This document shows, piece after piece, positions 5,953-60,280 of a stretch of 64,000 nucleotides of DNA. The position numbers and the translations under genes were made by a program. Every line of letters begins with the position of its first letter. The stretch's first letter is position 1. Origin of the DNA: Octopus vulgaris (Eukaryota); assembly GCA_951406725.2 (NCBI GenBank), contig OX597819.1, forward strand, positions 28,706,001-28,770,000. Reading direction: 5' to 3'. The notes beneath the pieces are model-generated. The model saw nothing but the letters and a program-made list of their open reading frames with translations. It was not told where the DNA came from and did no database searches.

Positions 5953-7230
5953 TTAATTGTTTGTCGTAGACCCGTTAAGAAGTGGCCTGTATTTTGCAAT
6001 AAAGAGAGTTTCTTTACTTATTCGTTGTCTCGAGGTTGTATCGTCCCTAAATTGGTAGAGGGGGAAAATCCTGAAGCTTGGTGTTTTTTTGTTGGCGCAA
6101 GTATCTATGTGTTGGCTAAAAGCTATTTTTCTGTTTTGGGAATTTTTATCTGGGATCTGTGCAGGGCCATTCGTTTACGCAAACTATTTTTTGTTTGGCC
6201 TATGTACTGCTCTTGACACCCGGAGCAGGTTAGTGAGTATATTAGGTTCTCCGAAGCACATGTGAAGTTGCTTTTCACTGTAAACCGTTGTCCCTGTTTG
6301 AAGGAGAACTCTGATCCCTCAATTAGATAGTCGCATATCCCGCAATTGGGTCTTCCACATTTTTTTACTGTCGGCTTCTGTGTTGAGGAGTGAATTCGGG
6401 CTTGTGTTAGGAGGCTTTTCATGGATTTAGGCTGTCTCTTGCTTTTTATGATCGTGTGTGTTTGGAGGATTGTGTTCATTCTGTGGTCTTTTTTTAGGAG
6501 GGGTATGTTGTGGAGGATGGTGCCGAAGGCTTCGTTATTGAGAGGGTTGTGTGTGGAGATGTATGGTAAGGCTTTTGGTTGTAAGTTTTTCTTTGATTTG
6601 GGATGTCTCAGTTCCTTGATGTTAAGTTGAAGGGCACGTTGAATGCACTTGTCAATAAGTGAAGGTGGATAGTTCCTGGTGATAAGGGTATCTTTTAGTT
6701 CTTGTAGTCGTGTGTCTCTGGTGTTTGCGTTTGAGACTATAGTGCATATCCTTTTTGCTAGGTTGAAGGGGATATTCATTCTGGTGTGTCTGGGGTGGCA
6801 TGAATTGAATGGAAGATATTGCTTAGAGTCTGTAGGCTTATAATATATGTCTGTTTCTATTATATTATTAGCTTTTTTAATGAGGATATCGAGGAAGGGG
6901 AGTTGTTGCTGGCTATATTCCATCGTGAATTGGATGTTTACGTCCAGTCCGTTTAAAATTTCCTGGAATTCTATGAGTTTTTCTATATTTTTATGCCAAA
7001 GGATGAAACAGTCATCTAGATATCTCTTCCAGTTGTTTTCTATGTAGATGGAGTAAGGGCTGCCATATCTTTCGAGAACCTTACGATACAGACTGATCTC
7101 TAGATATCCTATGACTAGGTTGGCAAAGGAGGGGGCCATTCGCGTACCCATTGCAGTCCCCGATTTTTGTCGGTAGAAGTTGTCATTGAAGGCGAAGAAG
7201 TTATTTTCCAGGATGAATTTAACTCCTTCT

Positions 7231-7233
<3 letters not shown>
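5953..7233 (-). pseudogene. PLE RT / GIY-YIG endonuclease ORF remnant
   Basis: [53 protein letters not shown] zinc linker, NLIYSLTCSGCQEQYIGQT. After a frameshift near 6135 it continues FSQHIDTC...KETLFIAKYRPLLN to a stop at 5953. The N-terminal part of ORF 6123..7613 is microsatellite. Confidence 0.9.
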
Positions 7234-7282
<49 letters not shown>

Positions 7283-8614: not shown

Positions 8615-8661
<47 letters not shown>

Positions 8662-9156
8662 TATATGTGTACAGGACATCAAAAGAATGTGAACAAAATG
8701 AGAAGCAAGAACATAAAAAAACAAAAACACAGAAAACGAACATTTTCCGAAAAACTAAAGAAACAAATAGAGAAACAAGACAGGCAACATAAGAACATTC
8801 CCTTCCTCAGTTATTCCTTGTTTTATCTACTCTGCATTTCGAAGGTAGGGACACAACGCGACTTTGTTAAAACAGTCCTTCCCACAAAGCAAATTAAATA
8901 AAATTTGGGACTTTTTTTGTGGCGATTTAAACTGGTAACAAAAATAGGACAGTAAGAACAAAACAGTAAAAACAAATGGTGAGGGCTGTTAAGCCAAGAC
9001 GATGTGAAGTGGTGAATGCTGGAAAAACGAGCTTTGAGAAGAAACAGGCAAAAATATGTCTTGTGTTTAGGAAGGTAGTGGAAGAAAGAAAGATAGATAG
9101 CCGTTGGTCATGTGTGAGCAATGAGAGAGTCAAGGAGGAAGAGTGAGAGAGAGAGT

Positions 9157-9528
9157 GAGTGGTTGTATACTGTCAACATAATGTGACAGTCCCGTAAAGG
9201 GAATCACACCACTGCTATTTAGCCCTAGGAAGCATTGACGCTTCCTGTCGGCTTTGACACTATTCCTGTGTCCTTATATTTGCAAAGGGGAGGCAAGCAC
9301 CCCCGCCAGCTAGGATTAGCACCTGAAGACATGAATGTTTCTGGGTCCTGCCCGTCATCAGTCCAGGGTAGCAAGTCCTGCTAGTTGAGATACTTGCCAA
9401 GCCCTCGCAAATATATATATTTACAGTGAAATCTATTCACTGATCACCGTAATTAGAAATATTGAATTTCTAAATGTGTCTCAAAGAGACATGAGCGGTG
9501 GTGGAGCGATAGAGTGGTTGTACACTGT
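9157..9528 (-). mobile_element. Candidate retrozyme-like non-coding element, 355-bp unit
   Basis: 17-bp direct repeat GAGTGGTTGTA(T/C)ACTGT at 9157 and 9512; internal HHR; long rod at 9275-9414; no ORF. Confidence 0.55.
9322..9367 (-). ncRNA. Type I hammerhead ribozyme
   Basis: CCTGGA-CTGATGA-cGGGcaggaCCCa-GAAA-CATtcATG-TC-TTCAGG; canonical core, GUC triplet, 6-bp stem I. Confidence 0.88.
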
Positions 9529-9690
9529 TACGTTACGTTATCTTTATATATTATATATATAAAGCATATGTTATACATGTATGTATATTGTTGTAATTGT
9601 CATTTTAGTAAATAAATAAATAAATTGACATAATATAATGTCTAAAAGTTGATGAATCCCACCTATTGATCCCCTCCTATTTCTTATTAC

Positions 9691-28712: not shown

Positions 28713-29270
28713 ATTTCTGTAAACATCTAGACAGATACCGGAACACCGACAAAAGCATAACAGTCACAATTGAGGCCAATGAAAGAAATTTGGGTAATTT
28801 AAGAATTAAGGAAGCTATAATCATAGACAGACTAGGGCCCCAAATTAACAACTGGCTGGAGGCTGGTAATCAATACATTATTTAGATACATCTGGATGCG
28901 TGTAGGTTCATTTTTGATAATATGCTCATCTGTAGTTTTTAACAAAAAAGAGGAAGCTGCACATATAATACGTAACTTAGAAGCAGCGCTATGGATATAC
29001 CAGCACACACGAGATTGAGACATGGCCAACCTCACACACTTCCCATGAAGAATTCCGGAAGGAGCATCGTGAGACCACTGCTGAGACGCTTCCACAAAAT
29101 AAAAAATAAAAGCCGTTAGAAAACCGATTATAGCAGGAATGCCATCTAAGAATATCTGAAGAAGGAATATCATTCCGAAATATCATATCAGACTATGGAT
29201 GACTAAATTACAACATGTAAATAGCCATTGTCTATATTATAGTTCATTGTTGTACCATTCAAAACATTTT
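28713..29270 (+). mobile_element. 3' fragment of the PLE2 family
   Basis: Collinear with the reverse complement of 17642-18185 (ERNLGNLRIKEAIIIDRLG), including the 3' hairpin and HHR. Confidence 0.85.
29152..29188 (+). ncRNA. Minimal HHR (PLE2 family)
   Basis: ATAT-CTGAAGA-A-GGAATatcATTCC-GAAA-TA-TC-ATAT; stem III reduced to the palindrome ATAT. Confidence 0.8.
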
Positions 29271-39109: not shown

Positions 39110-39321
39110 ATATATTGAAGGTGCAGGCATTACTGTGTAGTTAAGAAACTTGCATTGTGGCTATGTGGTCTTGGGTTCAATCCTATTGCATGGCACCTTG
39201 GGCAAGTGTTTTCTACTGTAACCCTACGCCAACCAATTTCTTGTGAGTGGATTTGGTTGATGGAATCTGAAAGAAGCCTGTTTTTTTTTTTGTTTTACTG
39301 ATGCACCACCATTTGTGTGAT

Positions 39322-39440
39322 GCTTACAGTACCTAGGTTTCCCAAGCGGTCACCCATTTAAGTACTAACTAGGCTCGATGTTGCTTAACTTCAGTGATCG
39401 GATGAGAACCGGCTGTTTTTAATGTGATATGGCCGTAAGC
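39322..39440 (-). pseudogene. 5S rRNA pseudogene (or SINE3 head)
   Basis: GCTTACGGCCATATCAC...CCGATCACTGAAGTTAAGC...TTAGTACTTAAATGGGTGACCGCTTGGGAA...TGTAAGC, 119 nt. Several substitutions and no oligo-T terminator. Confidence 0.88.
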
Positions 39441-58526: not shown

Positions 58527-60280
58527 CATTCATCACTCCACTCTTACCACCTCCATTCACTACAAGCACACAGACTCACACTCATACCTAAACTTCTCTT
58601 CCTCCCACCCCAAACACACCAAGCTTTCTATCCCCTATTCCCAATTCCTTCGTCTACGTAGGCTCTGTAGTGACGACCATGACTTTGAGACTTAGTCTCA
58701 ACTCATGGCTCGCCACTTCATCCTACGTGGATACCCCCTCACCACTATCCACACCGCCCTTGCCAGAGCACCTTCCGTAGACCGTGCATCTGCTCTTTCC
58801 CCCCGAACCCGCCCTGTAGTCTCCCACCTCCCTTTTCCCCTCACTTACCACCCCACGACCCTACCTCTCCAACGCACCATTCTTCGAGCTTTCCGGCATC
58901 TCTAGTCTGACCCATCAACTTCACACATCTTCCCTAACCGACCCCTCCCCTCCTTCAAACGAGCCCACAACCTACAAGACCTCTTGGTCCACAGCTCCTT
59001 CCCTGACCCTACCTCCCAACCTGGCTTGTTCCCCTGCTCCCACCCACGTTGCTGCACTTGCCCTTACCTCTCCAACACTACCCTCCTCACTGGCACCCAT
59101 CATCGACCCTATCGCATCATCAACTCCTTCACCTGCACCTCCAGCAATATCATCTATTGCATCTCCTGCTCTCTCTGCCATTCCCTGTACATCGGACAAA
59201 CGGGACGCCGCTTGGCTGACCGGTTTGCGGAACACCTCCGTGACATCCACCTTGCCAATGACACACCGGTCTCACGCCATTTCCGCTCCACCGGTCACTC
59301 CTTGCAACACCTGTCTGTGTTCAGATTGTCCTTGCACAGAGGCCATCCGGATTCCCGTTTGCGCCGTGAACAGGAATTAATCTTCTCTCTTCGCTCTTTC
59401 ATGCCATTCGGTCTCAACTCTCCCCCCTTCTCATCTAACCTCTCCCCGACTTCTACTTCTCTTCAGTCCTTCATCTTTTCACCCCTACTCTCTTTCCCTC
59501 TTTCTTCTTCCCTCTTCCCCTTCTCTTTCTCTCTGCTCCCTCACTCCCCTTCTCTCCCCTCCCCTCCCTCCTTTCCCCTCCCCTCCTCCCCTCCTCTCCT
59601 TCCTTTTCCCTTCCCTCTCCTCTCCTTCCTTTTTTCCCTCCTCACCCCCTCATCTCATCTCATCTTCCCTCTCCTTCCTTCTTTCTCCCCCTCACCCCCT
59701 CATCTCATCTCTTCTCTCTCCTCCCCCTCATCTCTCTTCCCTCCTCCACTCATCCATCACTCTACCCTCCCCAGCCGAACCCCCCCTTTCACTCTCCCCA
59801 CAACCCCCACTCTACCCCAACCCCAGCCGAACCCACACCCCACATGGGCTTTACCCACCTCCCACCACACTACACTACACCATACGACACTACACTACAC
59901 CATACGACATTACACATCACATCATACATACATACACACGTCCAGACCTTTCATACGCACATACATACTCTCTCATACACACGCACCCTTATGTTGGGGC
60001 GAGGTCATTTGACCTTGTTATCTCCCCTACTATCCCTCTTGCGTCTAACATCTGATCTTTGACTTCTGGCCGAAATCAGACTGCCATGTTAAATCGTTAG
60101 CTCCTGCATGCATTTTTCTTTCTCTCCTTGTTTCTTTTCTGTGTATCTTTCTGTTGAAGAGCGTAGGCTCGAAACGTAAAAGACTTGTTTTATTTCTATT
60201 TCTGAGCACCATACTAATACAATTGTTTGTTTGTACTCCGCCTGCCTTTGTCTTTTGTTTATTTTCGTAAGCTTCCCGTT
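58525..60280 (+). mobile_element. Penelope-like retroelement 3 (Neptune-type), 3' part with terminal repeat
   Basis: HYKHTDSHSYLNFSSSHP, IPYSQFLRLRRLCS, RGYP, CSHPRCCTC, NIIYCISCSLCHSLYIGQTGRRLADRFAEH, REQELI..L....PFGLN; two in-frame stops; flanked by TA microsatellites. Confidence 0.92.
60146..60183 (+). ncRNA. Minimal HHR with variant core in the PLE3 terminal repeat
   Basis: TCTTT-CTGTTGA-A-GAGCgtagGCTC-GAAA-CG-TA-AAAGA; palindromic stem III ACGT. Confidence 0.75.

What the first reader, a model, noticed from the sequence alone, without database searches (positions are those of the whole stretch)
9157..9528. Candidate retrozyme / small circular RNA element: HHR capping a strand-specific rod inside a 355-bp unit with terminal direct repeats
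Seen: a canonical type I HHR (9322-9367, minus strand, GUC). Its stem I continues as an imperfect helix over 9275-9414: ATATTTGC/GCAAATAT, GAGGG/CCTTT, GGCAAGTATCTC/GGGGTGCTTGCC, CTAGC/GCTGG, AGGA/TCCT. Many mismatches between the DNA arms are G-U pairs only on the HHR strand, which points to selection on RNA rather than a DNA TIR. Two more hairpins lie nearby (ACTGTCA/TGACAGT at 9169-9190; AGGAAGC/GCTTCCT at 9227-9246). A 17-bp direct repeat recurs 355 bp apart, and there is no ORF. Known: metazoan non-LTR retrozymes are few-hundred-nt, type I HHR, non-coding elements that make circRNAs and are proposed to use PLE RT. Inference: this is one circularly permuted monomer of such a family.
Basis: partly seen in the sequence, partly recalled or inferred. 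Interest (0 to 1): 0.85.

Follow-up and report, generated by a model that had tools for sequence, protein, structure and literature searches.

The report
Hammerhead retrozyme riding Penelope machinery
A 355-base non-coding unit with a hammerhead ribozyme motif is scattered in about a thousand or more copies through this animal genome, and the copies end the way Penelope-type jumping genes in the same genome end, so it is likely a parasite of those elements, probably copied from a small RNA circle.

Summary
The locus is one dispersed copy (1.05 units) of a non-coding family with at least 891 exact hammerhead-core matches in the 2.8-Gb host genome. Hammerhead and rod show compensatory changes across subfamilies. 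The copies are not randomly permuted: 69 of 76 end at one of two fixed 3' sites about 58 nt apart, 5' ends vary, 15 of 19 inverted insertions use one site on each arm, and 28 of 69 have target duplications (control 2.4). Autonomous Penelope-like elements (PLEs) in the same genome follow the same two-end rule (9 of 9), which published work ties to internal RT initiation. The 17-bp 'terminal repeat' is read-through past one unit. Copies read through the cleavage site for up to about 2.8 units on one haplotype, as a circular template predicts, but an uncleaved multimer is not excluded. Cleavage, expression and circles are untested; the partner PLE was not found. This copy has one hammerhead, so it could not release a monomer by double cleavage. 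Verdict: new member of the animal non-LTR retrozymes, with a PLE integration footprint that I did not find described for them.

The parts
9157..9528 (-). Whole insertion: one 355-bp unit plus 17 bp of the next turn; 5' end at 9528, 3' end at 9157
   Evidence: flanks beyond these points do not match the family
9322..9367 (-). Type I hammerhead motif (stem I 9367-9362 with 9327-9322; CUGAUGA 9361-9355; stem II 9353-9351 with 9345-9343; GAAA 9341-9338; short stem III; predicted cleavage after C9328)
   Evidence: activity untested
9275..9415 (-). Imperfect rod of about 140 nt that extends hammerhead stem I
   Evidence: 46 pairs including the hammerhead stems, 91.4% of cells paired in 32 copies, 16 pairs with changes on both sides
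9157..9173 (-). 3' terminal redundancy; ends at family site A (A/C-rich, predicted unpaired stretch after the 9169-9190 hairpin), the inferred RT start site of this copy
9512..9528 (-). First-turn counterpart of the 17-mer (5' truncation point of this copy)
9450..9508 (-). Internal copy of the roughly 58-nt 'tail' that lies between end sites A and B; holds two hairpins (9477-9491, 9453-9473); site B lies just after the second
9169..9190 (-). Hairpin just upstream of site A; its 3' arm crosses the unit junction
9227..9246 (-). Hairpin AGGAAGC/GCUUCCU
9424..9442 (-). Hairpin CAGUGAA/UUCACUG between tail and rod
9529..9541 (+). Possible micro-inversion at the 5' junction: a few bases resemble the family hairpin loop on the opposite strand (inference, weak)
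   Evidence: read; not tested statistically

Best explanation
This is one 5'-truncated, dispersed insertion of a high-copy non-coding hammerhead element whose copies end at two fixed sites as Penelope-like elements do, so it is likely pasted by a Penelope-type reverse transcriptase and endonuclease, probably from a self-cleaved and re-ligated RNA circle of about 353 nt. Proposed cycle: (1) rare loci with two hammerheads are transcribed (loci shown, transcription inferred); (2) double self-cleavage releases a monomer, which a host ligase closes (inferred from coral, mussel and axolotl retrozymes); (3) a PLE protein nicks AT-rich DNA on both strands and starts cDNA internally at site A or site B, usually one site per strand (footprint shown, enzyme inferred); (4) RT runs 5'-ward through the hammerhead junction and can pass its own start, giving copies from under one to about three units (shown); (5) most copies, including this one, keep at most one hammerhead and are likely dead ends.
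For: Family size: 2786 first-look candidates, 40 scored, full-length hits 88-94% identical; 891 exact hammerhead-core matches, reversed control 0. Ends: 40 A + 29 B of 76 distinct loci; same ends in sister subfamilies 70-82% identical to the window unit. Inverted 5' arms in 19 of 76; 15 pair A with B, 2 are A/A, 2 end elsewhere (P 8e-4 for 15 of 17). Target duplications of 8 nt or more in 28 of 69, shuffled pairings mean 2.4, max 7. AT content after the 3' end 0.78 vs 0.64. Autonomous PLE family 'A' in this genome has two ends about 65 nt apart and 9 of 9 distinct inverted insertions with both ends in view use one of each; family 'B' has a tail of about 40 nt with 3 such pairs. PMC11167929 shows in vitro that a PLE RT starts at two internal sites, that the tail is the sequence between them, that starts are A/C-rich and that both strands are cut. 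Circle-compatible: 17 of 24 copies found by a 3' query read through the cleavage site; 4 segments span two sites, as do L146 and a 2.8-unit copy L209; repeated parts within one insertion share diagnostic alleles (12 of 200 discordant vs 40% between loci; inverted arms 12 of 188 vs 42%); linkage across the cleavage site is as strong as on one side (mean r2 0.16 vs 0.14). Hammerhead and rod keep their pairing through compensatory changes.
Against: No cleavage, expression or circle was shown. PMC11167929 found hammerhead cleavage dispensable for PLE insertion in vitro, with unprocessed RNA the main substrate, which favours a linear multimer. No partner PLE with sequence likeness was found in three families tested. 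The C.A pair at the base of stem II may slow cleavage, and 8 of 9 Xenopus retrozyme dimers did not cleave in the 2026 preprint. Seven of 76 main segments end outside A and B (3 of them are split by later insertions). Two insertions (L015, L026) change haplotype between turns, which a single circle cannot give. The A and B windows were drawn after seeing the data, and two of my queries ended at site A, which favours A. Loci are the best-scoring hits, not a random sample. A few of the 28 duplications are near-simple AT runs.
Confidence: 0.58

Rival explanations
1. Same PLE-mobilised non-autonomous element, but the template is an uncleaved linear multimeric transcript from dimer or trimer loci; no circle is needed and the hammerhead only trims the 5' end or acts later.
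For: Hammerhead mutants did not change PLE insertion in vitro (PMC11167929). Dimers and a near-trimer exist. Shared haplotype between turns is also expected from a young homogeneous source. Haplotype changes in L015 and L026 fit mixed multimers.
Against: Sources of two or more units are rare (4 exact dimer-pattern matches for the main subfamily; no array above about 3 units among the places listed, which show only the first 100). A linear source shortens with each round unless multimers are rebuilt. No shared 5' flank (5' transduction) among 66 non-inverted copies. Hammerhead pairing is conserved by compensatory change.
Confidence: 0.25
2. The copies are just 5'-truncated stumps of the pseudo-LTR of an autonomous PLE that I did not find.
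For: Ends, tails, inversions and target duplications are those of PLE stumps; most PLE copies are 5'-truncated.
Against: Upstream of the hammerhead the copies always run into another turn of the unit, up to 747 bp and 1000 bp. None of 66 non-inverted 5' flanks holds a sense PLE ORF by tblastn with three PLE proteins; the one hit (L008) is antisense. The only non-family sequence shared upstream is a common SINE-like repeat.
Confidence: 0.08
3. Linear cleaved monomers are the template, and RT jumps end to end from one monomer to the next at the cleavage site, mimicking a circle.
For: Two insertions change haplotype between turns; several 5' ends lie 5-14 nt short of the cleavage site (unit 207-216).
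Against: Alleles on the two sides of the cleavage site stay linked (165 with 204, r2 0.76; stem I pair G-C 19, A-U 13, none broken). No 5' end falls exactly at the cleavage site and only 3 of 76 fall within 195-210. Priming is internal, not at a cleaved 3' end.
Confidence: 0.06
4. A DNA element (MITE-like or satellite) whose palindrome only looks like an RNA rod.
For: Both strands fold well.
Against: The rod is internal, not terminal; ends are polar (fixed 3', ragged 5'); G-U cells outnumber A.C cells 189 to 34 on the hammerhead strand (pairs were defined on that strand, so this leans its way); hammerhead core bases are nearly invariant.
Confidence: 0.02

Closest known systems
Animal non-LTR retrozymes (Cervera and de la Pena 2020, PMC7229834; mussel 350-390 bp, axolotl 330 and 350 bp)
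   Same: Unit size, type I hammerhead with short helix III, no ORF, strongly self-paired unit, long target duplications, co-occurrence with PLEs; a mismatch at the base of helix II is reported for one axolotl family.
   Different: Described as tandem repeats (up to 62-mers in coral); this family is dispersed and mostly under 1.5 units in the loci seen. RNA circles and cleavage are shown there, untested here. Fixed double 3' ends and inverted arms are not described in the parts I read.
Retrozymes as non-autonomous PLE derivatives (Li, Clavereau, Pollet 2026, bioRxiv 10.64898/2026.07.22.740005)
   Same: Same conclusion on the mobiliser; notes that monomer share varies from 0 to 1 among families.
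   Different: Their evidence is co-distribution and pLTR sequence likeness in Xenopus, and they suggest local amplification; the word 'tail' does not occur in the main text. Here the evidence is the integration footprint, and no pLTR likeness to a parent was found.
Endonuclease-bearing Penelope-like elements (Craig et al. 2021, 10.1101/2021.04.23.441226; Frangieh et al. 2024, PMC11167929)
   Same: 5' truncation, partial tandems, inverted 5' copy, optional tail on one end only, AT-rich targets, A/C-rich start site, hammerhead upstream of the start sites.
   Different: No RT or GIY-YIG ORF; tail about 58 nt rather than 30-40 (local PLEs have about 40 and 65); the hammerhead sits on a 140-nt rod.
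Non-autonomous Chlamys PLEs such as MRC1 (passage in Craig et al. 2021)
   Same: Non-coding PLE dependants with pLTR-like and head-to-tail insertions.
   Different: Those generally share 3' sequence with an autonomous family; none was found here. They are algal.

Membership tests
Animal non-LTR retrozyme | Type I hammerhead motif in the unit | tested here: met
   Core and three stems present, compensatory changes in stems I and II; C.A at base of stem II; no Rfam hit
Animal non-LTR retrozyme | Unit of about 150-450 bp, non-coding, no LTR, multi-copy | tested here: met
   353-355 bp; no ATG ORF of 40 aa or more; 891 core matches
Animal non-LTR retrozyme | Tandem copies with at least two consecutive hammerheads | tested here: met
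   Met by the family (L014, L026, L092, L093, L146, L209), rare; not met by the window copy, which has one; no long array seen
Animal non-LTR retrozyme | Highly self-paired predicted RNA | tested here: met
   z -7.9; 120 pairs in the 353-nt circular consensus fold
Animal non-LTR retrozyme | Target duplications longer than 4 bp, when present | tested here: met
   28 of 69 with 8 nt or more vs control 2.4; none found at the window copy
Animal non-LTR retrozyme | Self-cleavage of the RNA | not testable with these tools
   Needs in vitro transcription
Animal non-LTR retrozyme | Expression as linear and circular monomer RNA | not testable with these tools
   Only assembled contigs were served; they cannot show strand, ends or level
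PLE-mobilised element | Fixed 3' ends with optional tail, on one end of inverted insertions | tested here: met
   69 of 76 at A or B; 15 of 19 inverted insertions A with B; same rule in autonomous PLEs
PLE-mobilised element | 5' truncation, partial tandems, inverted 5' copies, AT-rich targets | tested here: met
PLE-mobilised element | Sequence shared with an autonomous PLE of the same genome | tested here: inconclusive
   No likeness to three families; the genome holds more families than I sampled
Autonomous PLE | RT plus GIY-YIG ORF joined to the pLTR | tested here: not met
   No sense ORF in 66 non-inverted 5' flanks; upstream is another turn of the unit

The most novel reading that the evidence does not exclude
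The family is a circular-RNA parasite of the PLE ribonucleoprotein: a 353-nt hammerhead circle carries two internal RT start sites, a PLE protein primes the two target strands at A and B on the same circle, and RT rolls through the ligated ribozyme junction. Its insertions would then be a genomic record of rolling-circle target-primed reverse transcription, explaining both how animal retrozymes move and how PLE partial tandems and tails arise.
Probability: 0.4. Interest if true: 0.78.

Novelty: new member of a known kind. Interest (0 to 1): 0.5.

Why it matters
Which enzyme mobilises animal retrozymes, and whether their RNA circles are the real transposition template, has rested on co-occurrence and sequence likeness. 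This family carries the PLE-specific two-site tail signature, obeys the same one-end rule as intact PLEs in the same genome, and reads through its own cleavage site. That names the two likely RT start sites to within a few bases and, with the published in vitro PLE assay and intact 717- and 781-aa PLE frames in this genome, makes both questions testable at the bench. The kind of element and the PLE link are already in print, which caps the score.

Tried and rejected
Rfam: no hammerhead at gathering score or at E 10. Partner search: GIY-YIG profile and two PLE protein queries gave three autonomous families; none resembles the unit at DNA level; a fourth family in the window was not searched. 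Expression: no RNA holder listed. Contigs of four runs were laid; the joint that goes back 355 bases stands in X8 (RNA is a guess) but also in X18 and X19, and tandem DNA copies give it too, so it is not used as evidence of a circle. Summed contig depth is far higher at 9157-9270 than at the hammerhead, which would fit many short 5'-truncated copies, but depth is no copy number and sister subfamilies diverge there, so it is not used. An apparent systematic difference between internal and terminal turns at unit 50-54 was a gap-placement artefact and was dropped, with CpG sites, (27 of 38 sites kept). Pair probabilities printed look mis-indexed and are not used; only the energies are. Sequence shared upstream of L050 and L105 is a common SINE-like repeat, not a parent. 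The idea that the haplotype changes in L015 and L026 map to the cleavage site could not be established. A cluster of 5' ends at unit 207-216 is post hoc and another cluster lies at 137-146, so it is left inconclusive. Earlier scan notes: none for this genome or sequence. PMC10886601 was irrelevant. The host was not identified; its repeats look cephalopod-like to me from recall, which is why two literature searches used those words.

Full report
Coordinates. 'Unit position' counts along the minus (hammerhead) strand from window 9528 (unit 1); the predicted cleavage site is after unit 201 (window 9328). The host genome G000 has 2.8 Gb in 227 contigs; I did not identify the species.

Observation. 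The minus strand folds at z -7.9 and the plus strand at z -6.8. The hammerhead has the full core, a 6-bp stem I, a 3-bp stem II closed by a C.A apposition, and a short stem III whose family form is a palindrome. Rfam does not detect it. Forcing the hammerhead fold costs 3.9 kcal/mol in this copy. No ATG ORF of 40 aa or more overlaps it.

It is a large dispersed family. A search with 9157-9528 gave 2786 first-look candidates; of 40 scored, the full-length hits other than self are 88-94% identical. A degenerate core pattern has 891 exact matches and a 17-mer from the 3' part has 1073, both with reversed controls of 0. Sister subfamilies 70-82% identical to the window unit have the same layout and a compensated hammerhead. 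Contigs of runs labelled as four different organisms align to it. There is only one copy in the window.

Structure is conserved. On 32 rod regions that I chose from the 80-odd cores listed to span the subfamilies, 46 pairs taken from the window copy are formed in 91.4% of cells; 16 pairs change on both sides; 0 of 500 shuffles reach the covariation score or the share paired, 2 of 500 reach the pair count and 33 of 500 the number of pair types; slid controls give 36-47%. Related sequences can beat shuffles without structure, and the pairs came from one of the rows, so I weigh individual pairs more: stem I G-C 19 and A-U 13 with none broken, stem II G-C 16 and A-U 14, a rod pair A-U 14, G-C 10, G-U 7. 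RNAalifold alone recovers stem I and most of the rod but not stems II and III.

The ends are the informative part. I pooled 76 distinct main-family loci from four searches, after dropping 18 duplicates. The main segment ends at site A (unit 12-26) in 40, at site B (unit 70-81) in 29 and elsewhere in 7; three of the seven are split by later insertions. The hammerhead-centred query, which does not touch either end, gives 17 of 20. 5' ends are spread over the whole unit. Nineteen loci have an inverted arm at the 5' side; in 15 one arm ends at A and the other at B, 2 are A/A and 2 end elsewhere (P 8e-4 for 15 of 17). Duplications of 8 nt or more flank 28 of 69 insertions against 2.4 in shuffled pairings. 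The window copy ends at A, starts at unit 1 and shows no duplication, so its '17-bp direct repeat' is read-through into a second turn. Site A lies in a predicted unpaired A/C-rich stretch after a hairpin; site B lies just after a second hairpin.

This is the PLE footprint. Craig et al. 2021 (passages read) describe 5' truncation, partial tandems, an inverted 5' copy and a 30-40-bp tail usually on one end only. Frangieh et al. 2024 (main text read, parts 1-2 of 4) show that a PLE protein cuts both strands of AT-rich DNA and starts reverse transcription at two internal sites, the tail being the sequence between them. In G000 itself, a young PLE family (150 scored hits, all listed at 100% identity) has two ends about 65 nt apart, and among 30 loci the 9 distinct inverted insertions with both ends in view each have one long and one short end (secondary pieces in L170 and L171 left out); an older family has a tail of about 40 nt, with three such pairs and two loci whose arms end elsewhere. 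An intact RT plus GIY-YIG frame of a third family is in L145. None of the three resembles the unit in sequence, so the partner is unknown.

Not a plain PLE stump. Upstream of the hammerhead, copies continue into another turn of the unit: up to 747 bp in the main family and 1000 bp in L209. Of 95 loci including sisters, the 66 without an inverted arm have no sense PLE ORF in 600 bp of 5' flank and share no non-family sequence except a common SINE-like repeat.

Template. Of 24 copies found with a 3' query, 17 read through the cleavage site; 4 of 100 segments span two sites. Repeated parts of one insertion share diagnostic alleles (12 of 200 discordant for tandem turns, 12 of 188 for inverted arms, against 40-42% between loci), and linkage across the cleavage site equals that on one side. 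So both arms and successive turns come from one haplotype, continuous across the ribozyme site. A ligated circle gives this; so does an uncleaved homogeneous multimer, and Frangieh et al. found cleavage dispensable in vitro. Scarce dimer loci (4 exact matches), absence of 5' transductions and conservation of the ribozyme tilt me to the circle at roughly 2 to 1. L015 and L026 change haplotype between turns and need a template switch or a mixed multimer. RNA evidence could not be obtained.

Comparison and novelty. It fits the animal non-LTR retrozymes of Cervera and de la Pena 2020 (results and discussion read, parts 2-4 of 6; supplement unreadable), who proposed circles as RT templates and PLEs as the likely mobiliser. 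Li et al. 2026 (abstract to discussion read, parts 1-3 of 5; term search; supplements closed) argue a PLE origin from co-distribution and pLTR likeness. The review PMC7761336 (passages) gives the same model. Searches listed no paper that I saw describing this family or a two-site tail in a retrozyme; the library lacks most subscription papers and Repbase, and I saw most hits only as listings. Unchecked notes from this scan report PLE-type ends on other non-coding units in other genomes, so the pattern may be common.

Verdict. Real, likely a PLE-mobilised retrozyme family; new member of a known kind, with unusually direct genomic evidence on an open mechanistic question. Interest 0.5.

Noticed in passing
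window 8661-9142: The left flank is another repeat, 73-75% like stretches of L064, L077 and L051, with a degenerate hammerhead-like start on the minus strand; possibly a decayed PLE end into which this copy inserted.
   Followed up: partly
window 5974-7235 (-) and 58537-59298 (+): PLE protein fragments: 69% identical to the 781-aa family, and 29% identical (another family).
   Followed up: no
window near 29152 (+) and 17766 (-): Two related minimal hammerhead-like motifs with palindromic AT-rich helix III.
   Followed up: no
window 39321-39440 (-): Full-length 5S rRNA-like copy, 92.7 bits.
   Followed up: no
L149-L178 (for example L153): Very young PLE family: 24865 candidates, 150 scored all listed at 100% protein identity, 717-aa frames, inserts in (AT)n, own hammerhead variant, tail about 65 nt. 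Likely still active.
   Followed up: partly
L067, L072, L086, L145: PLE family with many 781-aa frames and a hammerhead variant with a UUGAUAA core near its 3' end.
   Followed up: partly
L050:817-1475 and L105: The same common SINE-like repeat sits in or next to the AT stretch at unit 110-118 in two unrelated copies.
   Followed up: partly
L211, L212, L213: Three sister-subfamily copies about 15 kb apart with identical flanks: a local segmental duplication, not new insertions; L035 and L037 likewise share their 3' flank.
   Followed up: no
L087 and L011: A further short hammerhead-bearing repeat unrelated to this unit.
   Followed up: no
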